Positions 3,417 through 22,700 of a stretch of DNA of 64,000 nt are shown here, piece after piece. Under the pieces are notes generated by a model. That model saw only the letters and a list, made by a program, of their open reading frames with translations, did not search any database and was not told the DNA's origin. Source of the stretch: Patescibacteria group bacterium (lineage in GTDB: Bacteria; Patescibacteriota; Patescibacteriia; XYB2-FULL-38-15); the NCBI GenBank assembly GCA_041650995.1, contig JBAZJZ010000001.1, forward strand, positions 491,302-555,301. The letters are read 5' to 3'. Numbering within the stretch: position 1 is the first letter of the stretch; every line of letters starts with the position of its first letter. The position numbers and the translations under genes are program-made.

Positions 3417-4526
3417 TTATTTATTATTCTGTTCCTTTTTCCATTTTAAATATGCCTCCATAAACTGTTCCAAATCTCCATTAAGCACCGCGTCTGTATC
3501 CGCTGTTTCAAGTTTTGTTCTGTGATCTTTAACCATTCGGTACGGCTGCAAAACATATGACCGAATTTGATTTCCCCACGCCGCCAAAACTCCGGCTCGT
3601 AATTTATCAATTTCCTTTGTTCGGGTCTCCTCCTGCAGATGTAAAATTTTTGCTTTCAAAATTTTTAGGGCGGTTTCTTTATTTTGAGCCTGTGAACGTT
3701 CGCGCTGGCAGCTTACGGTGAGACCCGTGGGAAGATGAACAACTCTAACGGCCGAATAAGTTGTCTGCACGCTTTGTCCGCCGTGTCCGCTTGATAGATA
3801 TGTGTCGATCCGCAAATCTTTCGAATCCAATTTTATTTCTGAGACATCGTCAATTTCCGGCAAAACTTCAACTAAAGCAAACGAAGTATGCCGCATTTTT
3901 TCCGCATCAAAGGGAGAAATACGGACTAAGCGATGAACACCGGATTCACTCCGAAGCCATCCATAAGCCATCCGACCGGTGACTCTTACTGTTATGCTCT
4001 TAATGCCCGCTTCAGAACCACGCGTTTCATCAATAATTTCTGTTTTCCATCCCTTCTTCTCGCAAAACCTAAAATACATTCTGAGAAGCATCTCTGCCCA
4101 ATCCTGGGCTTCAGTGCCGCCCGTTCCGGCATGAATACTCAAAATGGCGTTCGCTCGATCGTGCGGGCCGGAAAATAAAACAAAAAATTCCAACTTCCTA
4201 AATTGAACGAGAAGCTCATTATATTTTTTTTCAATCTCTTCGCGCAAAGAAACTTCTTTGTCCTTTTGATCGAGCTTGGCCAAATCCAAAATATCCCCCA
4301 CTTCTTTTTTTAATTTTTCCCAAACTTCAACCTCTTCTTTCAAATCATTCAATCTCTGGTTCGTTTCCTTCGCCGCTTCCTGATCTTTCCAAAACTCCGG
4401 CGCCAAAGTTAATTTTTCCAATTTGACGATTTCTTTTTTACTATTTCCTAACTTTAAAAGTTCAAAGGCCTTTTCTATCCTCTGCTCCAACTCTTCTATG
4501 CTTTTAACTAATTCGTCCATTTTCAT
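3417..4526 (-). CDS. prfB: Peptide chain release factor 2
   Basis: The SPF tripeptide and the GGQ motif (SGHGGQSVQTT) are both present. The gene is encoded as a single uninterrupted ORF with no programmed +1 frameshift site. Confidence 0.9.
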   Translation of the reverse strand: MKMDELVKSIEELEQRIEKAFELLKLGNSKKEIVKLEKLTLAPEFWKDQEAAKETNQRLNDLKEEVEVWEKLKKEVGDILDLAKLDQKDKEVSLREEIEKKYNELLVQFRKLEFFVLFSGPHDRANAILSIHAGTGGTEAQDWAEMLLRMYFRFCEKKGWKTEIIDETRGSEAGIKSITVRVTGRMAYGWLRSESGVHRLVRISPFDAEKMRHTSFALVEVLPEIDDVSEIKLDSKDLRIDTYLSSGHGGQSVQTTYSAVRVVHLPTGLTVSCQRERSQAQNKETALKILKAKILHLQEETRTKEIDKLRAGVLAAWGNQIRSYVLQPYRMVKDHRTKLETADTDAVLNGDLEQFMEAYLKWKKEQNNK

Positions 4527-6334: not shown

Positions 6335-6502
6335 CTAGCACTTGCAGTCGCAACTGCAATCGGCGCAATCGCAACAGTCGCAATTGCTGCGGTCGCCGGA
6401 GGTCTGTGGGCCTCTCGAAGTCCGCCGCAGGTCCTTCTTCGACAACGGCTTGGCAGCCGCCCTCTTGCCCTTGAGGGCACGGACCATTTGCACAGCGCTC
6501 AT
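6335..6502 (-). CDS. 55-aa Cys/Asp-rich candidate RiPP precursor peptide (MSAVQMVRALKGKRAAAKPLSKKDLRRTSRGPQTSGDRSNCDCCDCADCSCDCKC)
   Basis: Hand translation of the minus strand gives this peptide. Its ATG overlaps the TGA stop of the upstream radical SAM gene (ATGA), and an AAGGAGGT Shine-Dalgarno sits 6 nt upstream. It has a basic leader and a C-terminal core with 8 Cys and 6 Asp in 16 residues. It falls below the 60-aa cutoff of the ORF track. Confidence 0.7.
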   Translation of the reverse strand: MSAVQMVRALKGKRAAAKPLSKKDLRRTSRGPQTSGDRSNCDCCDCADCSCDCKC

Positions 6503-7602
6503 TCCTTTACCTCCTTTCTACTGATAATTTCCTCTGGGTCGAAATGAGTCCAGAGGAAAGGACAGCCTCCTACACACTTCCCCCAGTGACGACAGCCCTT
6601 ACACTTCTCGTGAGGATATCGCCATATCTCACGCCGGAAGACTCCGTGGATGCCCTTCCTGCCGTACCAGACCTTGGCAAAGTCTGTCGCGGTTTTTACG
6701 GATTGCTCGCTCAGGTTGAAGAGCGGCCGCCCGACGAAGTGAGTGCACGGCAGAACATTGCCGTTAGGTTCGAACACCGCACCCGAGCCATAGAAGATGT
6801 GACAGTGGACACCATCGGAGATGCAGCCGATGGTCATCATCTCGTCCAGCAACGATTGATCAAACAAGCACAACGGAATCGTCGCGAAGAACTTCACCTT
6901 GATTCCTTTCGCCTTTAACGCCAAATAGGCGTCGGTGACGATTTGAGCCGTATGGGCCGGAGACAAGGCGAAAGACTCAGTTTTCTCTTGGCTACCGCCA
7001 GCCGAAGGCAAACCAACGTTAAAGAGGATGTTAACCACTCCCATTTTGTGCATCAACTCAGCTAGCGGAATCACTTCTCCGAAGTTGTGTCTGCTGACAG
7101 TCAGCAGAGTGTTGAACGACAGACCAAGCCTGAGACAATTCTCCACGCCCGCCATCGTCTCTCGAAAACTCAAGGTTCTGGTCACCGCGTTGTGGACTTT
7201 GGCGCTAGATCCCTCTACAGAGATGCTAGCGTGCTTTAGCCCGACATCGACAAGCGACCGTATGTACAGAGGATTGGCTAGTCTGCGTCCGTTGGTCACC
7301 AACTTGAACTCGATGTCAAACTGACTGCCTGCGCGTATCAGTTCAGCCAATCGGGGGTAGAGTGTTGGCTCACCGCCGATCAACAAACAGTCAGACGCTC
7401 CCATCTCTTTCATCATTCCACAGATTCTGATAGCCTGGTCAAAATCCATTGGCCGATCAACGAACTGACTGTGTTCGGCATAGCAACCGGCGCAATGATT
7501 GTTGCAGCCATAAGTCAACGCCAACCAGAACGTCTTGATCTGCGGTCGTTCTGTCCTTCCCATTTTTCTCTCCTTGCTTCTTCGCCAAGAACTCACGTTC
7601 AT
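6499..7602 (-). CDS. Radical SAM enzyme with a C-terminal SPASM/twitch domain (peptide-modifying maturase type)
   Basis: The CX3CX2C motif is present (GCNNHCAGCYAE). The C-terminal Cys cluster (CISDGVHCH...PCTHF...CKGCRHWGKCVGGCPF) is typical of SPASM domains. GC content and codon usage are markedly higher than in neighbouring genes. Confidence 0.8.
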   Translation of the reverse strand: MNVSSWRRSKERKMGRTERPQIKTFWLALTYGCNNHCAGCYAEHSQFVDRPMDFDQAIRICGMMKEMGASDCLLIGGEPTLYPRLAELIRAGSQFDIEFKLVTNGRRLANPLYIRSLVDVGLKHASISVEGSSAKVHNAVTRTLSFRETMAGVENCLRLGLSFNTLLTVSRHNFGEVIPLAELMHKMGVVNILFNVGLPSAGGSQEKTESFALSPAHTAQIVTDAYLALKAKGIKVKFFATIPLCLFDQSLLDEMMTIGCISDGVHCHIFYGSGAVFEPNGNVLPCTHFVGRPLFNLSEQSVKTATDFAKVWYGRKGIHGVFRREIWRYPHEKCKGCRHWGKCVGGCPFLWTHFDPEEIISRKEVKE

Positions 7603-7622
7603 GTTACATTAGCGTATATTCG

Positions 7623-8297
7623 CTATGTCGTCAACACCTCAACTCCGTATTTAACTAACTGATTAAAATTCTTATTTTTTTGCCACAAAATTTCCAATTT
7701 TTTTCTAAAAGCCTGATGCAGATCATATCCCTTATCTTTTTGGCATAGATATTTTTTAAACTCATAATTTAAAATAACCGTGAGAGATTCCTTTAAATAC
7801 TCAAATTGCCGAGGAGAGAGATTTTTAACCGGCTGCTTATTTTTACAATAAGCAATAAATTGAAAGTGCAACAATTCGTGCAGGAACGTTCCTAAATAAC
7901 ATTTAGCTGACCATACCGCGCAAAGCCACACGTACCCTTTTTCATAGTTATAAGGACAACGCGGAAAAGTGGTTAAAAAACAAGTAAACTTTTTTCTGTA
8001 CAATTGTTTTCCGGTTATTTTTTCCATCAGGCTGCACGCTTCTTGGGCATTATCATCAAATAATTTTTGAGCCTCCGCCAAATTTTTCTCCAAAACTTTT
8101 TTATGTTCTTTATAATATTTTTTCAAATAAGGTATTAAAAATTTAAAAGCTTCTTTTTCGGTTTTGCCATAAATTTTTTTCCACAGACTCTCCCCTACTC
8201 TTTGTTTCCAATCAACGCCGTGGGAAATTTTATTGCAAGCATTCCACCAATTCCAGGCGTCTTTTTTAATGTCTAGCTTGATGTTTATAGTTACCAT
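7623..8297 (-). CDS. Hypothetical protein with an HExxH motif (FLHELLHFQF); possible zinc metallopeptidase
   Basis: The 224-aa ORF is AT-rich like the host genome. The only recognisable feature is the HELLH motif. It lies immediately upstream of, and co-directional with, the rSAM cassette. Confidence 0.4.
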   Translation of the reverse strand: MVTINIKLDIKKDAWNWWNACNKISHGVDWKQRVGESLWKKIYGKTEKEAFKFLIPYLKKYYKEHKKVLEKNLAEAQKLFDDNAQEACSLMEKITGKQLYRKKFTCFLTTFPRCPYNYEKGYVWLCAVWSAKCYLGTFLHELLHFQFIAYCKNKQPVKNLSPRQFEYLKESLTVILNYEFKKYLCQKDKGYDLHQAFRKKLEILWQKNKNFNQLVKYGVEVLTT

Positions 8298-8356: not shown

Positions 8357-9064
8357 TCACCCCCGCACTTCACAAATTTCAAAATTATCTTTTATTTCAT
8401 CACGCAATTTCTTTAAAAATTCTATTGAATACGGTTTTATTTCACGAAATTCCGGACTGAAAATTTTCTCGCCTGATCTAAATTGCTGCAAATAATATTT
8501 TTTTGCTCCCCTGATAAAATTCGCAAGGTCCAAAATATTTTCTTCATTATGCAGCCCCGGAACGACTGTGGTACGAAATTCATATTCTAAACCGCTTTGC
8601 ATAATAATGCCAATACTTTGTTTAATATTCTCTATATCCACTGTGGCGCCAGCAACTTTTTCATATGATTCTTTTTGCAATAAAGTTTTTATATCCATAG
8701 AAATATAATCAATCATTTTTTCCGCTATGAGCGCCTTAAGCATTTCCGGATTTGTTCCATTGGTATCTAATTTTACCAAAAAACCAAGAATTCTAATTTT
8801 TTTTATAAACTCCGGCAAATCTGGATGAAGAGTCGGCTCTCCTCCTGTGATGCAAACCCCGTCAAGCAAACCGTGGCGCGAATTTAAAAAATCAAAAAAA
8901 ACTTTTTCTTCAATAATTTCCGATAATTTAAATTCAGCCGGATCAATTAATTCCGGATTATGGCAAAAATGACAACGAAAATTACAACCGACAGTAAAAA
9001 CCGTGCAAGCAATTTTGCCGGGGTAATCAATCAAAGTTAGTTTTTGTAATCCACCGATAATCAT
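8357..9064 (-). CDS. nrdG: Anaerobic ribonucleoside-triphosphate reductase activating protein (radical SAM)
   Basis: An N-terminal CNFRCHFCHN radical SAM cluster is present. Size and gene neighbourhood (next to nrdD) fit NrdG. Confidence 0.8.
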   Translation of the reverse strand: MIIGGLQKLTLIDYPGKIACTVFTVGCNFRCHFCHNPELIDPAEFKLSEIIEEKVFFDFLNSRHGLLDGVCITGGEPTLHPDLPEFIKKIRILGFLVKLDTNGTNPEMLKALIAEKMIDYISMDIKTLLQKESYEKVAGATVDIENIKQSIGIIMQSGLEYEFRTTVVPGLHNEENILDLANFIRGAKKYYLQQFRSGEKIFSPEFREIKPYSIEFLKKLRDEIKDNFEICEVRG

Positions 9065-9135
9065 AGGGACATTTTATCACAAAACACGGCTCCCATCAAT
9101 GGAAAGCCGTGTTTTAAGATTTCATCATTTTTTAC

Positions 9136-9285
9136 TTAAACTTCTTCCAGCTGTTTATCATAAGTCTTTCTCTCTCCAAATTCCGCCTGCTTGCCATCGT
9201 TCCATTGACTTACCGGTCGAAGATAGCCGACGACGCGGGAATAAATTTCACACGCCTGCCGTTTTGATTGTTTTTCCTCCGTCAT
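9136..9285 (-). CDS. Stand-alone glycyl-radical domain minigene (49 aa: MTEEKQSKRQACEIYSRVVGYLRPVSQWNDGKQAEFGERKTYDKQLEEV)
   Basis: Hand translation shows the glycyl-radical loop consensus of class III RNR (YSRVVGY...RPV..WN.GK). The ORF lies about 30 nt downstream of the nrdD stop, in a different frame and with in-frame stops between. It is not in the ORF track (<60 aa). Confidence 0.6.
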   Translation of the reverse strand: MTEEKQSKRQACEIYSRVVGYLRPVSQWNDGKQAEFGERKTYDKQLEEV

Positions 9286-9317
9286 ATATTTATTGTTATT
9301 TATTATTTTGTGATTAA

Positions 9318-11348
9318 TTAATCTTTATAACCAATTTCTTCGTCACACTTCGGACAAAACGGATGTTCACCGGCAAGGTATCCATGTTTCGGACAGACAC
9401 TAAAAGTCGGGGTCAAAGAAAAATAAGGAAGATGAAATTGGCTCGCGATTTTTTTAACAAGTATTTTTGCCGCGTCACCAGAAGGCAATCTTTCTCCGAT
9501 AAATCCATGAAGCACTGTTCCTCCAGTATACCGCGTTTGCAGGTCGTCTTGCAAGCGCAAGGCTTCAAAATAATCATTAGTAAAGCCAACGGGCAGATGA
9601 GATGAGTTTGTGTAATAAGGAGTGGCGCCTTTTTCCCGATGAGCCTTTTCGTTGGCGACAATAATATCCGGATATTTTATTTTATCTTTTTTCACCAAAC
9701 TGTAGCTCGTGCCTTCTCCGGGAGTTGCTTCAAGATTATAAAGATTATTTGTTTCTAGTTGATAATCCATCAACCTTTCCCTCATAAAATCAAGAACGGA
9801 TTTGGCAAAATCATGGCCTTCCTCCGTAGTGATATTCCTACCCAAGAAATTGAGGCATGCCTCGTTCATACCAATCAAACCGATCGTGTTGAAATGGTTT
9901 CTCCAATATTCATTAAATCTTTCTTTTATTGGCGCGAGATAATGTCGGCAATAAGGATAAAGTCCTTTTCCGGTTAGAGTTTCCACAACTTCTCTTTTTA
10001 TTTCAAGACTCTTTTTGGCCAAATCCATTAAACGCGCCAATCTGTCAAAAAATTCTTTTCTTGTTTTTGAAAGATAACCGATGCGAGGCAAATTGATTGT
10101 TACAACGCCGATTGAACCGGTTAAAGGATTGGCCGCGAAAAGTCCGCCGCCGCGTTTTCTAAGTTCGCGGTTATCAAGGCGCAAGCGGCAACACATTGAT
10201 CGCGCGTCTTCAGCTTTCATATCTGAATTTACAAAATTGGCAAAATAAGGAATGCCGTACTTGGCCGTCATTTCCCAAATTGAATCCAACTCTTTCTTCT
10301 CCCAATTAAAATCTGGCGTGATATTATAGGTCGGAATTGGAAAAGAAAAAACTCTACCCTTCGCGTCACCAGAAATCATCACTTCGGCAAAGGCCTGATT
10401 AAACATATCCATTTCCGCCTGAAATTCTCCGTATTTTTCTTTTTGTGGCACTCCGCCAACAATCACTGCTTCATCCGCCATGTTTTTGGGCGGGGTAAGA
10501 TCCATAGTGACGTTGGTAAACGGCGTCTGAAAACCAACGCGAGTGGGAACATTAACATTAAAAACAAATTCCTGCATGGCTTGTTTCACATCTTTGTAGG
10601 ACAAACCATCATAGCGAATAAAAGGAGCAAGAAGCGTGTCAAAATTGGCAAACGCCTGCGCGCCCGCTACCTCTCCCTGAAGAGTATAAAAGAAATTAAC
10701 AATCTGCCCCAACGCGCTCCTCAAGTGTTTTGCCGGTTTTGATTCTATCTTTCCGGCAACTCCCCCAAAACCGCGCGTCAAAAGATCATGGAGATCCCAA
10801 CCGCAACAATAAGCCGCCAAAATTTGCAAATCATGAATATGAAAATCTCCATCCACGTAAGCATCTCTGATTTCGGGCGGATAAACCTTATTTAGCCAAT
10901 AATGAGAACTTATCGCTGAACTAATATGATTATTCAATCCTTGCAAAGAAAACGCCATGTTGCTGTTTTCTCGAACCAACCAATCCAATTTATCCAAATA
11001 ATTGCCCATTATCTGGTTTCCATCAACCAACGCATTCAGTTCGCGAATTTTTGCGTGCTGATCGCGGTAGAGAATATACGCTTTAGCCACCCTAATCTGT
11101 CTGGCTCTAATCAAAACTTCTTCTACAATATCCTGAATTTCTTCCACGGCCGGTATTGAACGATGATGAAATTTTTTATTTAAAATTTTCATCACCTGGT
11201 CAGAGAGCCGATTCGCTAATTTTTCGTCTTTTTCTCCGATTGCCTCTATTGCCTTTCCAACAGCTACCGTAACTTTTCCTTGGTCAAAATCAACAATGCG
11301 GCCATCTCTTTTTCTTATTTGGGTGACTTTATTTTGACTATAAATCAT
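9318..11348 (-). CDS. nrdD: Anaerobic ribonucleoside-triphosphate reductase (class III) catalytic body. It ends after the Zn-ribbon half-site and lacks the glycyl-radical loop.
   Basis: An N-terminal ATP-cone is present. The product has NrdD-like length and a C-terminal ...CPKHGY...CPKCD Zn-binding segment. The RVxGY Gly-radical motif is missing from this ORF. Confidence 0.8.
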   Translation of the reverse strand: MIYSQNKVTQIRKRDGRIVDFDQGKVTVAVGKAIEAIGEKDEKLANRLSDQVMKILNKKFHHRSIPAVEEIQDIVEEVLIRARQIRVAKAYILYRDQHAKIRELNALVDGNQIMGNYLDKLDWLVRENSNMAFSLQGLNNHISSAISSHYWLNKVYPPEIRDAYVDGDFHIHDLQILAAYCCGWDLHDLLTRGFGGVAGKIESKPAKHLRSALGQIVNFFYTLQGEVAGAQAFANFDTLLAPFIRYDGLSYKDVKQAMQEFVFNVNVPTRVGFQTPFTNVTMDLTPPKNMADEAVIVGGVPQKEKYGEFQAEMDMFNQAFAEVMISGDAKGRVFSFPIPTYNITPDFNWEKKELDSIWEMTAKYGIPYFANFVNSDMKAEDARSMCCRLRLDNRELRKRGGGLFAANPLTGSIGVVTINLPRIGYLSKTRKEFFDRLARLMDLAKKSLEIKREVVETLTGKGLYPYCRHYLAPIKERFNEYWRNHFNTIGLIGMNEACLNFLGRNITTEEGHDFAKSVLDFMRERLMDYQLETNNLYNLEATPGEGTSYSLVKKDKIKYPDIIVANEKAHREKGATPYYTNSSHLPVGFTNDYFEALRLQDDLQTRYTGGTVLHGFIGERLPSGDAAKILVKKIASQFHLPYFSLTPTFSVCPKHGYLAGEHPFCPKCDEEIGYKD

Positions 11349-16791: not shown

Positions 16792-19700
16792 TTATCTTAC
16801 GGTAAAGTAAATACTGCGTTCTCCGCCAATACTTTCGATTGGCGGCGCTGGTGCCGGAATAACTGGTGAGGAATCAAGTCCAAAGTCAACCGTACCGTCT
16901 AAATTATAAGTAACATTATAATTACCACTCGGCGTTCCACTCACATAAACAATTCTGAGATGATGCCGGCCTCTTGATAAGGTGTTTACTGCTGCAAACG
17001 TTGATCGACAAACTTCATCACCCCACGCACAAACTCTCCACTGGACAACTTTATGATTATCAATGTAAACGTCGAAAATATCATCGTCGACGCCAGTGAC
17101 GCGTAAATTTACTGTCGCACAATTTGTCTCGCCGTCCATACAACCATCAACATTACTATTATCATTTGGATCGCAAGCGTCAATTATTCCGTCATTATCA
17201 GCATCCGGATTTCTCGCACCGCTAGGCCCATATTTTCTATTGTCGCAAGCTTGGCCAGCGGCGCAAGTGATAGCACAAGATGCCGGACTACAAGTCGGCG
17301 CGGCTAAATCATATGGTTTTGCCCAAGGATTTGAAGTATCAACGCAGATCCAATTCGCGGGATAGGCCGGTAAATGGCTATCGCACTGCTCTGTTCCATT
17401 AACTGTACCATCGCCGCAAGTCGGACCGCTTGCAGTTCGCAAGGTGCATTCGCGGCTGCAATAATTGCAAGTTGAACCATATGGCGCCGTGCACGGCGTG
17501 CCATTGACCGCATCTCCGGAATCGCACGCCTCTATTCCGGCTCTTGTAAACCCGTCGCCGCAACGGGAACTTTGACAATTAACGCAAGCATCAGTATTTA
17601 TGTCATTACCATCGTCACATTGTTCGCCACCCTGCACAATTCCGTCACCACATTCCCCTGTCACGGTGCAAGAGCTCCAGCCTTCGTCTTGCCAACGGCA
17701 TTGTCTTATATCACCAGGTATTTCACAATTTAAAGTTCTGACCCTTGGATAACCCGTTCCTGTCTCTGGGGCACATAACAGACATTCCTCACCTGACCCG
17801 CAATCCGCGTTACTTTCACAAATTACAGTATAATAGCTAGGAAGGATTGGACTTTCTGGACTTAAATATTCCTCAACCGGAACACAAACACCTCTTGAGG
17901 AAATTTGATTTCTATCACACTCCTCTTGCGGTTCATCCACCACTGTATTCCCACAATATGGCGCCGAGCCAACACAACCCGCGGCGCAATACGGCGTGCC
18001 GTCAGGTTTTTTTCCATATCGGCCATTATCCGCTCCATCGTCGCACCGTTCACCGTAAGCACTTTGCAAAATTCCATCACCACAATAACCGCCGCTCATT
18101 CGGCAAACCGTGGAGCACTGATATTGATTTGTCGGCAATGTCCCGCCACCCGGAATTCTTCCCCCTCCCGGTCCGCGGTCGCAGGCTTCGCCAGTATCAA
18201 TAATTCCATTACCACAAGTGGCAAGACATGTCCCCCAATCATTCCAGCGGCAAGTAGCTAAATTACAAGTACGGCTTTGGCGGCCGTTTGCGCCGCTCGA
18301 GGCGGTACAAACTTGTTCGTTAACGCGGCATGTTCCGCCGCCACAATCCGCGTCAGTCCGGCAAGAAATTGTCGGATCATTAGAGCACGTATTTGCCAAA
18401 CTTGGTTCGCATTCTTCGCTGGCGTTAATTATTCCGTCGCCGCAAATTCCGCCCACGCTGTAAATTGTGTTATTGCAAACGTCTTCATATTGGATTCTTG
18501 ACGGATGCGCTGCCCGGAACCAATGCCAGCTTGGATTTGTTTCCGGAGGAATCATGTATTCTAAATCACTACCAATATTATAAAATCCCGTTTCTGACTC
18601 ATAACGATATTGATAAATATGCGATAAGCCTGGGCAAACGTAAGACTCTCCACTTGTATTCCAGCAAGTATCGGCGCTGTAAGGATCCAGACAACCTTGA
18701 AATTTATTTAATGGGTCAGTCGGCAAGCCGCCGCCGAGCTCCTGGCCAAGGGTTGCCCAAGAGTCCCATTTGCTAGTGGAAATCCCGCGGACATACGAAC
18801 CCGCTTCCAATTTTGGCGGATAGCCTCGCATGGCCATATATCTTTCCACTGCCTCTTTAATTTTATCCAAATCAGATAAACGCTGGACATCGCGCGCCAG
18901 TTTATCTTTTGGCGAATCACATAAAAATTGTGTCGGAGTTTGTGGACAATCTAAATCCGCTGAACAAGAAATTACCGCGCCATCCGCATCTCGCGCCACG
19001 ACTCCCTCGGCGTTACGGCACACTTTGTTGTTCGCCAAATTAATATTAAATTTCCAATTATCCACTAACTGATTATAAATATCAATCGTGTCTTGGCTCG
19101 CGCCTTCATTATATGAAATTAAATAAACATTTGTATAAATATCCGGTTCGGAACCAGAACCGTCCGCACCTCTCGGTTGATTGGCCGCTGAAACATAAAT
19201 CGTCCGGCCGTCTTCCGCCGCTTGATATTGGTCAATTGTTTTTCCGCCCGAAGCTGATGGCCTGAATCCCTGAGCTAAATACCAATCAAACAAAGCCAGG
19301 TGATTTTTGTTTGTGTAAATTCTAATGCCAATCGCGTCAGACGAGCTTTGACATGAGCCGCCCCCTGGGGCGCAAGGACTTTCCGTGTTGCAAGGAAGTT
19401 TGGAAAGAGTGCAGTAACTTCCGCCGACAAACAAGAAATATTCCCTGAGCAAAAAATCTGTCGAGCCGACAGGCGCGGGCGGATTATTTACAACCGGCGG
19501 ATCGCTAATTGTCGGCAAATCGTCGCCAAAACCAATTTCTCCCCTATCCTGACAATAATATGTTTCAAAGTTATATGTTTCATCAATCAATGCTTCCCCG
19601 GTCACACCAAACCTGTCTGGCCACGGATTTTCACAAAGGAAAACTGTTATGTCGGCTCCGCTGCTTATAACTTTCCCCACGGTGCGCGGCGACAAAACTG

Positions 19701-22700
19701 TATCCGTCGTAATTTTTGCCGAAACCAAAATTCTTGCTTCGCCATTTTTATTTTGCGCTGTCGCTGTCTGGCGCTCGCTAAATTGGCAAATACCCCCTGA
19801 ACCACAATCACTATTTCTATTACATCTAGTTCCTGTTTCAACGCAAGATCCCTCGGGAACCAAGTCAACTACAGTTAAATCGTTGGACAACCAATCCTGC
19901 CATTCCCAGTAATAAACATCCGGAAGGCGAGAAAGCATTCTCCCTCGCGCGTCACGGGCCGTGGCAAGAAATTCATGAGTTTCTTCGCTTCGCGTAAAGA
20001 CATAAGAAGCGGGAGAAACTACTACTTGGCTCAAAGCACAAATACTGCTTCCAGTTTCAAAATCCCACCGATAAATTTCCCTGCCACTATAAGCTTCTGG
20101 ATATTCACCATACAACCTTCCGCCTCCCAAAGCCACACCTTTTGAATTTCTAATTCCTTTAATTTCCGGCGATCCGGGATTATCACCTAAAAGTAAAACT
20201 CTATACCTGCGTCCGCCGTCAAAAGCTTTAGTCGGGCTAAAGCTTGCTTCGGTCACCAAATCACTGCCCTTACTTACAACTGTAGATGACGCCGTTCCTG
20301 GCCAGACACACCATGGAGAGGGCGGAGCGGCGCTCACTGGCCGGCCAAACAATGCTTGGCTTAACTGGTTAATTACATTTTTAACTTGACTCAAAATTTC
20401 TAAATCTTTTTCTATTTTGGAAATCGGCTTGATTAATAATCTCGCGATCGGCACTGGCAGCCATTTTTTTATTTTTTGAACAAAGTGGAAACCACCCGTT
20501 TCTTCTCCGGTCCACAAAGCCAGAGAAGTTGTCCCCTCAGGGCACGCGCCGCCGTAATCGCCAACCACTAAAATATTCCCTGTTATGCTTGCCGTTTCCA
20601 TTATTTGATCAAAAGTCACGGAAATTTTAGCATTGCGGCAGACATCAACCGCTCCGGATTCACAAGCAGTTGCGCCATCCCGAGTAGGATCGCAGTTTGC
20701 TACTTTCGGTTTAAAATAGCAGCAAGTATTCCGACCCACTCCTAGCACACAATCAGCATCACTTGTGCAGGTTTGCGAAGTCGTCCCCTCGCACACATGA
20801 GATGGCATACATGACAAATGAATCGCTCCACAATCTTGTCCGCCGCAGCGCAAAGTTAAATCACCGCTATCAGATTTTCCTTCGGTCTCAGCAAAAATTT
20901 CCGTAGTGCTGGAATTTACTCCGGCAGCCACAGCTTCTGGCGCAAGATCAATTGCTGTTGCCGTTTGGTATGGATCAATTCTCGTATCTCTAACTGTTCC
21001 CTCGTTTAAACAAGTTACGCTGCAACCATCACCAGAAACCGCGTTCCCGTCATCACAATCTTCGCCGCGTTCTACTGAACGATTTCCGCAAACTCCCCCG
21101 CCGGCTACAGATCCTTCGTGCTGACAGATATTATTACATCCGTCGCCCGAACGAGTATTTCCGTCGTCGCAGTCCTCGCCCACGTCAATAACTCTATTGC
21201 CACAATGAGTTGATCCTTCATTTAAACAAGCTCCCGCTCCGCCGCAGGGCGTACCAATTCCTGGCGGACAGCCAGTGCACCCGTCGAGAGAAACTGTGTT
21301 GCCGTCATCACAATCTTCGCCAAATTCTTTTACACTATTTCCGCAAGACGGATAATTATTGTTATTTGTAATCGTCGCTACTCCCGGATCGGCCGAAGTC
21401 CATCTCCAATTGTAGTCCATAACAGAAAGACGCTGACCGATCGGACTGCAAAGATCTGGATTACTAAAAGGCGTGGAAGAATAATTTTGTGTTTCGCCGA
21501 TAAAATTTAAAATTGCATTTTGCGGATTAACCACGACACGATCCACAGTGCAAGGATTGGTATCATCTTTAGTCTTGAAAGACCAAGAGTATGAATTTGG
21601 ACTCCCGACCGGATAATTTAAATCAGTCAAATGAACACCGCTTGCTGATGTTACATCATCGGAAATTACCGCGCGATAAAAAGTATTGGGTAAAAATAGT
21701 GTGCCTGCGGGTGGAGCAATTATTAATTTCTTTGTCGTATCATTATAAGAAAGACCCAAAGGAAGAACTTCTGTCAACGGCCGTGTCCCTTCATTTAAAC
21801 AAGTTATTGTGTTACAACCTGCGGGAAATGGCGAACCATCACAATCCTCACCCTCTTCAATAATTCCATTGCCACAATTTGGTCCGAGATTTCCCTCATT
21901 TAAACAGGTTACGCGATTACAACGCTCCGGAAACGGCACGCCATCGCAATCTTCTCCTGTCTCCCGGCGGTCATTACCGCAATATGATCCATAACGCGCG
22001 TTTGATCCTTCATTTAAACAAGTCTCACTGCAACCATCACCAGAAACCGCATTCCCGTCATCACAATCTTCGCCTGGCTCAAGCACACCATTACCACATT
22101 TCCAAATATAAAGATGAACATTCGCCGCGCTCTCCACGCTCGCCCGATTCATATTTGTATTAAATTCCGCGCCGATTTCCGCGTTAATACAAGCGTCGCT
22201 GCAATTCGGCCAACTATCTTTTACCTTTGGATCAGTAAAATCTATGGTCAAATTTCCCGAGCCAGACTTTATTTCACTCGGAATCTCGCCAGTAATCCGA
22301 ACCGGCGAGCCAACTTCTGTTTCTGCCCGAGCTGTAGCAATGGTACGCGGAGTCGCACTGATTGCAACTACTGCCCTTATAATATCTGATGAAGTCCAGC
22401 GCCAATCATACGGACTACAGTCAATAGTTAGACAAACATCACCGGCGGCGTAACAAAGGCCATTATAATCTTGCGTCGCGTCAACACTCGTCAATGTCAT
22501 TTCATAAGGCAAAACTCCCACCAAACCAATCGCGCAAGTTTCGTCACTGTCGCGAGTTTTAAATTGCCAAACATAGTCCCCGCCTTCCACACCGTCTCGA
22601 TCGCCGTCCAAGAAAAATCCTCCGTCCGGACATCCGACGCCGCCGAGACAACTTTTTATTCCTGTGCCTGCAGCCACATCACTTTTTAAAGTTACTTGAT

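What the first reader, a model, noticed from the sequence alone, without database searches (positions are those of the whole stretch)
9136..11348. Class III ribonucleotide reductase split into a catalytic body (NrdD, 676 aa) and a separate 49-aa glycyl-radical-domain minigene
The large NrdD ORF stops right after its Zn-ribbon half (…CPKHGY…CPKCDEEIGYKD*). The canonical glycyl radical loop (…CEIYSRVVGYLRPVSQWNDGKQ…) is encoded about 30 nt downstream, in another frame with intervening stops, as its own small ORF with an ATG. This is either a genuine two-piece NrdD, a recoding or editing event, or a frameshift sequencing error. A two-piece enzyme with a replaceable radical cap would be reminiscent of the GrcA/YfiD spare-part glycyl radical domain.
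Basis: seen in the sequence. Interest (0 to 1): 0.6.

Follow-up and report, generated by a model that had tools for sequence, protein, structure and literature searches.

The report
Two-piece anaerobic ribonucleotide reductase
This bacterium encodes its oxygen-sensitive DNA-precursor enzyme as two genes, a 676-residue catalytic body and a separate 49-residue peptide that carries the radical-bearing glycine; the same split recurs in many ultra-small bacteria and archaea, many phages carry the small piece alone, and I found no paper describing it.

Summary
On the minus strand, nrdD (9318-11348, 676 aa) has an ATP-cone, the catalytic barrel and a complete Zn ribbon, and then stops. After a 32-nt AT-rich spacer, a 49-aa ORF (9136-9285) supplies exactly the missing end of the NrdD profile, the RVVGY glycyl-radical loop. 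nrdG follows.

- **Same split elsewhere:** close relatives from 7 independent assemblies have it, with 25-26-nt spacers. So do about 20 species-level genomes of Patescibacteria and DPANN archaea, with spacers from -4 to +179 nt in all three relative frames.
- **Body homologues:** 119 of the 120 best lack the Gly loop.
- **Selection:** the minigene is under strong purifying selection (dN/dS about 0.05).

Sequencing error, recoding and pseudogene decay are effectively excluded. The most likely mechanism is a two-subunit class III ribonucleotide reductase (RNR): NrdG activates the small subunit, which works in trans inside the barrel.

Two related things turned up. Orphan copies of the minigene sit in bona fide phage contigs with no nrdD or nrdG nearby. 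Stand-alone Zn-ribbon plus Gly-loop proteins of about 113 aa occur in Desulfobacterota. No paper found describes any of this, and a 2026 review states that spare-part proteins are known only for formate lyases. Verdict: a new variant of a known kind, of high interest. Biochemistry is untested, and AlphaFold docking was inconclusive.

The parts
9318..11348 (-). nrdD 'body' gene, 676 aa. It encodes the class III RNR catalytic subunit without the glycyl-radical loop.
   Evidence: ORF. Pfam NRDD positions 1-529 of 562 (E 1.6e-180) plus ATP-cone. NF006126 scores 1037.8 bits against a cutoff of 548. The AF2 model of the body matches only class III RNR structures in the PDB, with E from 5e-30 to 5e-20.
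11052..11321 (-). ATP-cone (aa 10-99), the domain that regulates overall activity allosterically.
   Evidence: Pfam PF03477, E 5.9e-21.
10185..10199 (-). Finger-loop motif SMCCR (aa 384-388). It carries the cysteine(s) expected to receive the radical from the glycine.
   Evidence: Sequence. The SCCR finger-loop motif is described for T. maritima NrdD. Assigning the role to these residues is an inference by homology.
9345..9395 (-). Complete Zn-ribbon, C652-P-K-H655 ... C665-P-K-C668.
   Evidence: Sequence. The same C..H..C..C pattern is conserved in fused and split relatives. The Zn ribbon of TmNrdD lies between the last barrel strand and the Gly loop.
9327..9344 (-). Conserved tail motif D-E-E-I-G-Y, directly after the Zn ribbon and just before the body stop.
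   Evidence: CPxCD(E/A)E(I/M)G(Y/F) is present in nearly all of the 119 Gly-loop-less homologues. It also occurs in the fused relative L006. Its function is unknown.
9286..9317 (-). 32-nt AT-rich intergenic spacer between the body stop (TAA, 9320-9318) and the minigene ATG.
   Evidence: The spacer is 26 and 25 nt in close relatives. No Shine-Dalgarno motif is present, which is normal for this genome (7 of 46 ORFs have one).
9136..9285 (-). Minigene, 49 aa: the glycyl-radical small subunit (proposed). The radical glycine is Gly20 (codon GGC, 9228-9226) in the motif SRVVGY.
   Evidence: ORF. Pfam NRDD positions 530-562 of 562, E 1.4e-10. It aligns to TmNrdD residues 614-646 around Gly621. dN/dS is 0.05. 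The search found 394 database relatives, and the best 120 are all stand-alone proteins of 41-83 aa.
9081..9115 (-). Stem-loop AAAACACGGCU...AGCCGUGUUUU after the minigene stop; possibly a partial terminator.
   Evidence: The fold predicts the hairpin. It is conserved, with sequence changes, in L081 and L086. The terminator scan did not call it because the T-run is short. The role is inferred.
9071..9099 (-). Promoter-like site (TTGATG, 17-nt spacer, TG-TAAAAT) just upstream of nrdG.
   Evidence: This is a consensus match only.
8357..9064 (-). nrdG, the radical-SAM activase for NrdD.
   Evidence: TIGR02495 NrdG2 scores 218.9 bits against a cutoff of 131. Pfam Radical_SAM also matches. It follows the minigene in the split loci where the downstream sequence is held and tblastn finds it.

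Best explanation
The locus encodes a class III (anaerobic) ribonucleotide reductase made of two polypeptides, not one.

1. The 676-aa body provides the ATP-cone, the ten-stranded barrel with the finger-loop cysteines, and the Zn ribbon.
2. The 49-aa product of the downstream minigene provides the buried loop with the radical glycine (Gly20) and the short C-terminal segment after it.
3. The two genes are transcribed together. The minigene is translated from its own ATG.
4. The peptide binds the body non-covalently, with its Gly loop inserted into the barrel opposite the SMCCR finger loop.
5. NrdG, encoded next, uses S-adenosylmethionine to abstract a hydrogen from Gly20, either on the free peptide or on the bound one.
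6. The glycyl radical then generates the thiyl radical that reduces NTPs, as in single-chain NrdD.

Shown: the gene architecture, its conservation, the selection on it, and the domain assignment. Inferred: co-transcription, separate translation, trans assembly, and activation by NrdG.

A likely but unproven benefit concerns oxygen damage. Oxygen cleaves the chain at the glycyl radical, which here would destroy only a peptide of about 5.8 kDa. That peptide could be replaced while the body of about 77 kDa is reused.
For: - **Complementary halves:** the body and minigene each match one part of a single NrdD profile, with no missing positions. The break maps between TmNrdD residues 611 and 614, straight after the Zn ribbon and before Gly621.
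- **No other copy in view:** the 64-kb window has no second NrdD or Gly loop.
- **Close relatives:** the same split is found in assemblies from 7 samples, with spacers of 25-26 nt rather than 32 nt.
- **Selection:** dN/dS is 0.05 for the minigene, 0.03 for the body and 0.15 for nrdG.
- **Wider genomes:** about 20 GTDB species genomes (Patescibacteria, Micrarchaeota, Iainarchaeota, Aenigmatarchaeota, Woesearchaeota) split at the same point. Each minigene has its own ATG. Spacers run from -4 to +179 nt in all three frames. Some show classic coupling signals, such as TAAATG or ATGA overlaps and a GGAGG motif in the body's last codons.
- **Body homologues:** 119 of the 120 best lack the Gly loop.
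- **Fused counterparts:** relatives with long linkers exist (L006 with 22 aa, L032 with 20 aa), showing where the fission occurred.
- **Start context:** the AT-rich leader matches this genome's usual start context.
- **Works in trans:** 73 of 80 viral loci carry the minigene with no NrdD body or NrdG within +-10 kb. Six of them were checked for phage hallmark genes and all have them.
- **Literature:** the glycyl-radical domain of fused NrdD is highly mobile and must flip out of the core to be activated.
Against: - There is no protein-level evidence of any kind: no proteomics, EPR or activity data.
- AlphaFold2 on the concatenated sequence did not place the peptide. Residues 674-725 and the finger loop (389-409) have pLDDT below 50. 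The alignment was unpaired, so this is inconclusive rather than negative.
- Only 64 kb of the genome is visible, so a second, fused NrdD elsewhere cannot be excluded.
- The minigene has no Shine-Dalgarno motif, although this genome rarely uses one.
- The repair or economy rationale is speculation.
Confidence: 0.85

Rival explanations
1. Programmed recoding joins the two ORFs during translation, so the cell makes an ordinary single-chain NrdD. The mechanism could be a -1 frameshift, ribosomal bypassing or stop read-through.
For: In the window the minigene frame is open from 9324, a few bases before the body stop. A -1 slip within AAA-GAT-TAA could in principle fuse the two. Three relatives (L037, L076, L079) have overlapping frames and no ATG in the small ORF.
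Against: There is no slippery heptamer at the junction. Relatives place the minigene in frame 0, +1 or +2. Spacers reach 179 nt. In at least 7 loci the minigene frame is closed by a stop well downstream of the body stop. Each minigene has its own ATG and a variable leader, and some have a Shine-Dalgarno motif or a start overlapping the stop. Spacers differ in length even among close relatives, at 32, 26 and 25 nt. Orphan phage copies show that the peptide is made on its own.
Confidence: 0.04
2. A sequencing or assembly indel artificially broke a normal nrdD gene.
For: One contig alone cannot exclude an indel. One relative, L014 (Saccharicrinis, a long-read assembly), does show two apparent frameshift errors in its nrdD.
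Against: The spacer has stops in all frames and does not read as protein. The same split is found in 7 independent assemblies of close relatives and in more than 100 distinct homologues. The body carries an extra tail and the minigene an extra leader, both absent from fused forms.
Confidence: 0.01
3. The locus is a decaying pseudogene. The body is inactive and the small ORF is a remnant.
For: Patescibacteria have reduced genomes and lose genes (general knowledge, not tested here).
Against: Purifying selection is strong on the body (dN/dS 0.03), the minigene (0.05) and nrdG (0.15). The motifs examined, the SMCCR finger loop and the Zn-ribbon ligands, are intact, and the body matches the full NrdD catalytic profile. 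The architecture persists across phyla.
Confidence: 0.03
4. The minigene is a true spare part or regulator for a different, full-length NrdD encoded elsewhere in the genome. The truncated body either has another role or borrows the peptide only occasionally.
For: Only 64 kb of a contig of about 567 kb is visible. A Paceibacterota genome (L017) has a fused nrdD plus an extra 85-aa Zn-ribbon and Gly-loop gene. Desulfobacterota carry orphan versions of about 113 aa.
Against: The body here has no Gly loop of its own and sits in an operon-like array with the minigene and nrdG. 119 of 120 close homologues show the same arrangement. Nothing else NrdD-like is found in the window.
Confidence: 0.05

Closest known systems
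Canonical single-chain class III RNR NrdD with NrdG (phage T4, E. coli, Thermotoga maritima, Prevotella copri, Streptococcus thermophilus)
   Same: It has the same domains in the same order: ATP-cone, barrel with finger loop, Zn ribbon, and Gly loop with RVxGY. It has the same partner activase. The modelled body fold matches these structures only.
   Different: The chain is interrupted between the Zn ribbon and the Gly loop, so the radical glycine sits on a separate 49-aa polypeptide. The body gains a conserved DEE(I/M)GY tail, and the peptide gains a short variable leader.
GrcA/YfiD of E. coli and Y06I of phage T4 (autonomous glycyl-radical cofactors, the 'spare parts' for pyruvate formate-lyase)
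   Same: It is a small stand-alone protein carrying a glycyl-radical loop that must work in trans with a large catalytic body. A phage-encoded version exists as well.
   Different: GrcA is homologous to the PFL C-terminus, whereas this peptide matches only the NrdD family. GrcA backs up a PFL that has its own Gly loop; here the body has none, so the peptide is obligatory. The peptide is 49 aa, against about 127 aa for GrcA (14.3 kDa). The review states that spare parts are known only for formate lyases.
Split class II RNR NrdJa/NrdJb (Pseudomonas aeruginosa; Crona et al. 2015, cited)
   Same: An RNR catalytic subunit is encoded as two consecutive genes, and the C-terminal functional module sits on the second polypeptide.
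   Different: It belongs to a different RNR class with different chemistry (adenosylcobalamin, no glycyl radical). The split lies at a different position, and the second piece is a large protein rather than a 5.8-kDa peptide.
Multi-subunit glycyl radical enzymes (benzylsuccinate synthase alpha-beta-gamma; 4-hydroxyphenylacetate decarboxylase small subunit)
   Same: These are glycyl radical enzymes (GREs) that need small accessory polypeptides (established knowledge; GRE review).
   Different: In those enzymes the radical glycine stays on the large catalytic subunit. Here it is on the small one.

Membership tests
Class III ribonucleotide reductase NrdD (Pfam PF13597; TIGR02487; NF006126) | Catalytic NRDD barrel domain scoring above the curated family cutoffs | tested here: met
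   The body scores 601.9 bits on PF13597 (cutoff 26.2), 1037.8 bits on NF006126 (cutoff 548) and 532.8 bits on TIGR02487 (cutoff 326). The fold search returns only NrdD structures at the top.
Class III ribonucleotide reductase NrdD (Pfam PF13597; TIGR02487; NF006126) | Zn-ribbon between the last barrel strand and the Gly loop | tested here: met
   C652-x2-H-x9-C-x2-C668 lies in the body. Compare CxxxHx6CxxC in TmNrdD. Metal binding itself cannot be tested here.
Class III ribonucleotide reductase NrdD (Pfam PF13597; TIGR02487; NF006126) | C-terminal glycyl-radical loop (RVxGY) on the same polypeptide as the barrel | tested here: not met
   The body ends at profile position 529 of 562. The loop SRVVGY is on the separate 49-aa ORF. 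The system as a whole has the loop, but the body protein alone does not.
Class III ribonucleotide reductase NrdD (Pfam PF13597; TIGR02487; NF006126) | Finger-loop cysteine to accept the radical | tested here: met
   SMCCR at aa 384-388, like the SCCR motif of TmNrdD. Which of the two cysteines is used is not known.
Class III ribonucleotide reductase NrdD (Pfam PF13597; TIGR02487; NF006126) | Cognate radical-SAM activase NrdG encoded nearby | tested here: met
   ORF 8357-9064 scores 218.9 bits on TIGR02495 NrdG2 (cutoff 131).
Class III ribonucleotide reductase NrdD (Pfam PF13597; TIGR02487; NF006126) | Glycyl radical formation and NTP reduction | not testable with these tools
   This needs anaerobic reconstitution, EPR and activity assays.
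GrcA/YfiD autonomous glycyl-radical cofactor | Homology to the PFL-type glycyl-radical domain (Pfam Gly_radical PF01228) | tested here: not met
   The Pfam scan of the 49-aa protein returns only NRDD PF13597. The NCBIfam scan returns only NrdD models.
GrcA/YfiD autonomous glycyl-radical cofactor | Coexists with a parent enzyme that keeps its own Gly loop (spare part, not sole part) | tested here: not met
   The adjacent body lacks the loop, and no other copy is found in the window. The rest of the genome was not seen.
GrcA/YfiD autonomous glycyl-radical cofactor | Small stand-alone protein with a radical-glycine motif acting in trans | tested here: inconclusive
   The stand-alone gene and the motif are shown. 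Action in trans is inferred from the architecture and from orphan phage copies, not demonstrated.
Programmed ribosomal frameshift or bypass gene | Conserved slippery or take-off site and a fixed frame relation between the two ORFs across relatives | tested here: not met
   The frame relation is 0, +1 or +2, and spacers run from -4 to +179 nt, with stops closing the downstream frame. Spacer length varies among close relatives.
Split intein / protein trans-splicing | Intein halves flanking the break (roughly 100 aa on the N side and 35 aa on the C side) | tested here: not met
   Only 8 residues follow the Zn ribbon in the body, and 11 precede the conserved core in the peptide. No intein family matched.

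The most novel reading that the evidence does not exclude
NrdD-type glycyl-radical peptides may form a widespread class of exchangeable 'radical cartridges', in three guises.

- **Obligate small subunit:** a large clade of Patescibacteria and DPANN archaea, as in this window.
- **True spare parts:** Desulfobacterota carry Zn-ribbon plus Gly-loop proteins of about 113 aa. One Paceibacterota genome has a version beside a fused nrdD.
- **Phage auxiliary genes:** these would re-arm the host's NrdD body with fresh radical subunits during infection.

This would be the first non-PFL spare-part system. It would also be the first glycyl radical enzyme whose radical natively resides on a separate peptide.
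Probability: 0.45. Interest if true: 0.9.

Novelty: new variant of a known kind. Interest (0 to 1): 0.8.

Why it matters
- **A new architecture for glycyl radical enzymes.** They are taught as single chains in which the radical glycine lies at the C-terminus of the catalytic subunit. The one known exception is the PFL repair protein GrcA/YfiD. A 2021 paper asks explicitly whether other enzymes have spare parts, and a 2026 review says none are known. This locus and its many relatives show a class III RNR whose radical glycine is natively on a separate peptide of about 5.8 kDa.
- **A natural system for open questions.** How does the activase reach a glycine that is buried in the mature enzyme? 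Can a glycyl radical be made on a free peptide and then docked? How is radical transfer maintained across a non-covalent interface? How do oxygen-exposed anaerobes repair RNR?
- **Annotation.** The bodies are labelled as complete NrdD. The peptides are labelled hypothetical, 'oxidoreductase', or, at 49 aa, 'anaerobic ribonucleoside-triphosphate reductase'. Large RNR phylogenies discard sequences under 400 aa, so they would miss the peptides.
- **Phage biology.** Orphan phage copies suggest a previously unrecognised auxiliary gene that targets host dNTP supply.

Tried and rejected
- **AlphaFold2 on the body plus minigene, single sequence:** the model is useless (pLDDT 34.5).
- **AlphaFold2 with an unpaired alignment (A3):** the body is good (mean pLDDT 79, pTM 0.75). 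The peptide and the finger loop have pLDDT below 50, so the docking question stays open.
- **Neighbour-joining tree of NrdD bodies from 69 loci:** one coherent split clade contains the window. Other split lineages are scattered among fused ones on very short deep branches. I therefore cannot say whether the split arose once or several times.
- **The look-up of encoding contigs for the window's own peptide:** no record, so the source sample remains unnamed. The nearest named relative is a Candidatus Falkowbacteria NrdD at 84% identity.
- **Seven literature searches and several full-text look-ups**: I found nothing on a split NrdD or an NrdD-type spare part. Absence from this library is not proof of absence elsewhere.
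- **Terminator scan:** it did not call the hairpin after the minigene, so its terminator role is only a suggestion.
- **Ideas considered and rejected:**
  - A group I intron, as in T4 nrdD: a 32-nt spacer is far too short.
  - A split intein: the flanks are too short.
  - Read-through: there are multiple in-frame stops.
Full report
**1. The observation**

The minus strand carries an ORF at 9318..11348 encoding 676 aa that ends ...CPKHGYLAGEHPFCPKCDEEIGYKD, with stop TAA. A 32-nt AT-rich spacer follows. An ATG at 9285 then opens a 49-aa ORF (9136..9285): MTEEKQSKRQACEIYSRVVGYLRPVSQWNDGKQAEFGERKTYDKQLEEV.

The small ORF is in the -1 frame relative to the body. Its frame is closed by TAA at 9327-9325, and the other two frames carry several stops in the spacer.

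Profile searches show that the two ORFs are complementary pieces of one family.
- Pfam NRDD positions 1-529 of 562 (E 1.6e-180), plus an ATP-cone, lie in the body. Positions 530-562 (E 1.4e-10) lie in the small ORF.
- NCBIfam NF006126 covers positions 2-650 in the body and 648-683 in the small ORF.
- The next gene (8357..9064) is the activase NrdG, matching TIGR02495 at 218.9 bits against a cutoff of 131.

Against solved structures, the body aligns to T. maritima NrdD residues 99-611 and the peptide to residues 614-646, around the radical Gly621. The break therefore lies exactly between the Zn ribbon and the Gly loop. The Zn ribbon is complete in the body (C-x2-H-x9-C-x2-C). The T. maritima paper describes the equivalent element as a Zn ribbon inserted between the last barrel strand and the C-terminal Gly loop.

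**2. It is not an error or a recoding site**

Close relatives. Two sister lineages carry peptides 94% and 92% identical to the window's.
- They were assembled from 7 different samples (SRR5011273, SRR32167788, SRR28264343, SRR7867194, GCA_003589615.1, DRR321573, DRR381269).
- All have the same gene order: ftsA-ftsZ-nrdD-minigene-nrdG.
- Their spacers are 26 and 25 nt rather than 32 nt, so the frame relation differs even among near relatives.
- Nei-Gojobori estimates give dN/dS of 0.05-0.07 for the minigene, 0.03 for the body and 0.14-0.16 for nrdG, at dS of about 0.7-1.1.

More distant genomes. A scan of one genome per GTDB species returned 80 loci.
- Most are fused NrdDs. About 20 are split at the same place.
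- In the split loci the body ends a few to about 70 residues after CPxC. The stop is TAA, TAG or TGA.
- Spacers measure -4, -1, +1, 18, 24, 32, 35, 41, 59, 65, 93, 103, 144 and 179 nt, in all three relative frames.
- Each small gene has its own ATG and a variable leader, followed by the conserved core (K)R(Q/T)xCE(V/I)YSRVVGYLRPVxQWNxGKQAEF.
- In at least 7 loci a stop closes the minigene frame tens to more than 160 nt downstream of the body stop, so no single slip could fuse them.
- Several loci show textbook translational coupling: TAAATG, ATGA, or GGAGGTAAATAATATG.

The window's minigene has no Shine-Dalgarno motif, but only 7 of 46 ORFs in this window do. AT-rich leaders are the norm here.

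**3. How common it is**

- The peptide search found 394 relatives, and the best 120 are all proteins of 41-83 aa.
- Of the 120 best homologues of the body (68-92% identity), 119 lack the Gly loop and end in CPxCD(E/A)E(I/M)G(Y/F) plus a variable tail. Those with names come from Candidatus Falkowbacteria, Uhrbacteria, Buchananbacteria, Parcubacteria and the 'Patescibacteria group'. Only one, P0239, is fused.
- The split genomes carry these labels: Patescibacteria, Micrarchaeota, Iainarchaeum, Aenigmatarchaeota and Woesearchaeota, plus some MAGs labelled Gammaproteobacteria, whose labels I did not verify.
- Public records call the peptides 'hypothetical protein', 'oxidoreductase' or 'anaerobic ribonucleoside-triphosphate reductase'. 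Examples are MFA5076337.1, MDD4900534.1, MCD6215596.1, MBI4361440.1 and MBI5732043.1.

**4. Origin**

- Fused relatives have linkers of 7, 9 or 12 residues between CxxC and the SR of the Gly loop.
- Two fused genes have long linkers that look like unsplit versions of the split architecture. L006 reads CSICDEENGYVEGMVVDEKRQKCEVF (22 aa). L032 reads CPKCDALIDNLQENLKKRTRCEIY (20 aa).
- In a neighbour-joining tree, L006 sits next to the main split clade that contains the window, and L032 sits next to the split L068.
- The deep branches are too short to decide between one fission and several, or to rule out re-fusions.

**5. Most likely mechanism**

By homology, the body supplies everything except the radical site. 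The peptide supplies the loop that in T4, T. maritima and P. copri NrdD dips into the barrel to meet the finger loop. In the body that finger loop is SMCCR, aa 384-388.

I propose the following steps.
1. The two genes are co-transcribed. No terminator-like element lies between them, and a conserved hairpin follows the minigene.
2. The peptide is translated independently.
3. It assembles non-covalently with the body.
4. NrdG abstracts a hydrogen from Gly20.

In fused enzymes the glycyl-radical domain must flip out of the core to be activated. It is so mobile that it vanishes from cryo-EM maps in some states. A detachable loop is therefore physically plausible and might simplify activation.

Oxygen cleaves glycyl radical enzymes at the radical glycine. 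In a two-piece enzyme only the 49-aa piece would be lost. That rationale is inference.

AlphaFold2 could not settle the docking. The body model is good and matches only class III RNR structures. The peptide and the finger loop are modelled at low confidence, probably because the alignment had to be unpaired.

**6. Related things found on the way**

(a) Phage copies. The same peptide alignment hit 158 places in IMG/VR.
- Of the best 80, 67 are stand-alone ORFs of 40-123 aa.
- With +-10 kb of flank (1.04 Mb in total), 73 loci contain no NrdD body (HMM built from the bodies, E < 1e-3) and no NrdG.
- Six of these loci were checked, and all carry phage hallmark genes: terminase, portal, minor head protein, tape measure or tail fibre.
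- These orphans imply that the peptide functions in trans with a host enzyme.

(b) A second family, with 936 hits, of which the best 120 are 97-154 aa.
- It consists of an N-terminal helix, its own CxxC...CxxC ribbon and the same Gly loop.
- It occurs in Desulfobacterota as a monocistronic gene, away from nrdD and nrdG wherever the surrounding DNA was examined.
- An 85-aa version lies between a fused nrdD and nrdG in a Paceibacterota genome.
- A 144-aa stand-alone ORF annotated as anaerobic RNR, to which the phage peptide query matches, is present in the archaeal virus ANMV-1. Its ribbon was not inspected.
- These are candidate true spare parts for NrdD.

(c) Inteins. Several body genes carry large in-frame insertions at residues 274/275 and 386/387, presumably inteins.

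**7. Comparison with what is known**

- **Membership:** the system is a class III RNR by every sequence criterion except one. The Gly loop is not on the catalytic polypeptide.
- **GrcA/YfiD:** it is not a member of that family. It is NrdD-type rather than PFL-type, and it is the sole Gly loop rather than a spare. It does work like GrcA in that a small protein donates a radical loop to a large body.
- **Split RNR precedent:** the split class II NrdJa/NrdJb shows that RNR gene fission happens, but it involves different chemistry and a different position.
- **Literature:** none of the searches found a description of a split NrdD. [quoted passage not shown] A large RNR phylogeny removed sequences under 400 aa, which would hide the peptides.

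**8. Verdict**

- It is a new variant of a known kind of enzyme.
- Confidence in the genetic architecture and in separate translation is high.
- Confidence in trans function is good but rests on inference.
- The repair and cartridge rationale, and the role of the phage copies, are open.
- Interest: 0.8.

Noticed in passing
L090-L169 and L172-L251 (IMG/VR viral contigs), e.g. L098:3492-3644, L105:3483-3635, L137:3444-3635: Orphan NrdD-type glycyl-radical minigenes of 40-123 aa sit in phage contigs. 73 of 80 loci have no NrdD body or NrdG within +-10 kb. Phage hallmark genes (terminase, portal, minor head protein, tape measure, tail fibre) are confirmed in six of them. PHROGs has no family for these peptides.
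   Followed up: partly
L035:3752-4114, L022:3734-4141, L040:3620-4117, L088:8001-8345 (Desulfobacterales CP070697.1, UCF89954.1): A family of stand-alone proteins of about 111-118 aa has an N-terminal helix, its own CxxC...CxxC Zn ribbon and the NrdD Gly loop. The search found 936 database hits, mostly Desulfobacterota. The gene is monocistronic and not next to nrdD or nrdG. These are candidate NrdD 'spare parts' analogous to GrcA.
   Followed up: partly
L017:4148-4405 (Candidatus Paceibacterota DAONFR010000001.1): An 85-aa gene with a Zn ribbon and a Gly loop lies between a normal fused nrdD and nrdG. Its Gly-loop region repeats the sequence at the end of the fused NrdD almost exactly.
   Followed up: partly
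L171:2686-3120 (ANMV-1 virus KP703175.1, AJP62049.1): A deposited archaeal virus genome has a 144-aa stand-alone ORF annotated 'anaerobic ribonucleoside triphosphate reductase', two genes downstream of the prohead protease. No full nrdD is annotated within the 6.1-kb stretch shown.
   Followed up: no
L037, L076, L079 (MAGs labelled Thermotogae or uncultured bacterium), junction near 3930-3966: A variant split in which the small ORF overlaps the body end by 29 nt (68 nt in L037). It has no ATG (a TTG or GTG start at best). Ala replaces the conserved Cys (QKAEVYSR). It carries an N-terminal DGNL(I/V)LEDG(R/T)VIPA extension also seen in a group of phage minigenes. I cannot tell whether it uses a non-ATG start or a +1 frameshift.
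   Followed up: partly
L011, L033, L049, L056, L062, L070 (nrdD body genes): In-frame insertions of roughly 0.45-1.2 kb interrupt the NrdD body, at window-body residues 274/275 and 386/387 in most of these loci. They are presumably inteins. The second site is inside the SMCCR finger-loop motif, between the two cysteines.
   Followed up: no
window 9327-9344 and body homologues P0121-P0240: The motif D-(E/A)-E-(I/M)-G-(Y/F), directly after the Zn ribbon, is conserved in nearly all Gly-loop-less bodies and in the long-linker fused relative L006. Its function is unknown. It may be a docking element for the peptide or for NrdG.
   Followed up: no
window 9136-9285, residue Cys12 of the peptide: The Cys just before E(V/I)YSR is invariant in the 38 aligned minigenes. 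It is present in most fused relatives (CPxCGxxCEVY) but absent from T. maritima NrdD. Its role is unknown.
   Followed up: no
window 9064-9115: A conserved hairpin follows the minigene. It overlaps a promoter-like TTGATG-17-TG-TAAAAT whose -10 element ends about 7 nt before the nrdG ATG. That would give a nearly leaderless nrdG mRNA and expression uncoupled from nrdD and the minigene.
   Followed up: partly
window 6499-8297: Between nrdG and the HtrA-like protease gene, this genome has a 224-aa ORF with no Pfam match and a 367-aa radical-SAM/SPASM protein. The close relatives L081 and L086 instead have a small gene for a protein with a methylated-DNA-protein-cysteine methyltransferase domain (PF01035).
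   Followed up: no
window 16792-25512: A 2906-aa ORF with Ig-like (Big_5, Big_7, TIG), DUF4215 and T4SS-pilin-like domains. It is probably a giant surface protein.
   Followed up: no
L014 (Saccharicrinis sp. CAXXLC010000039.1): The nrdD shows two apparent frameshifts, one at body residue 529 and one before the Gly loop. The contig naming suggests a long-read assembly. This is probably sequencing error, not a true split.
   Followed up: no
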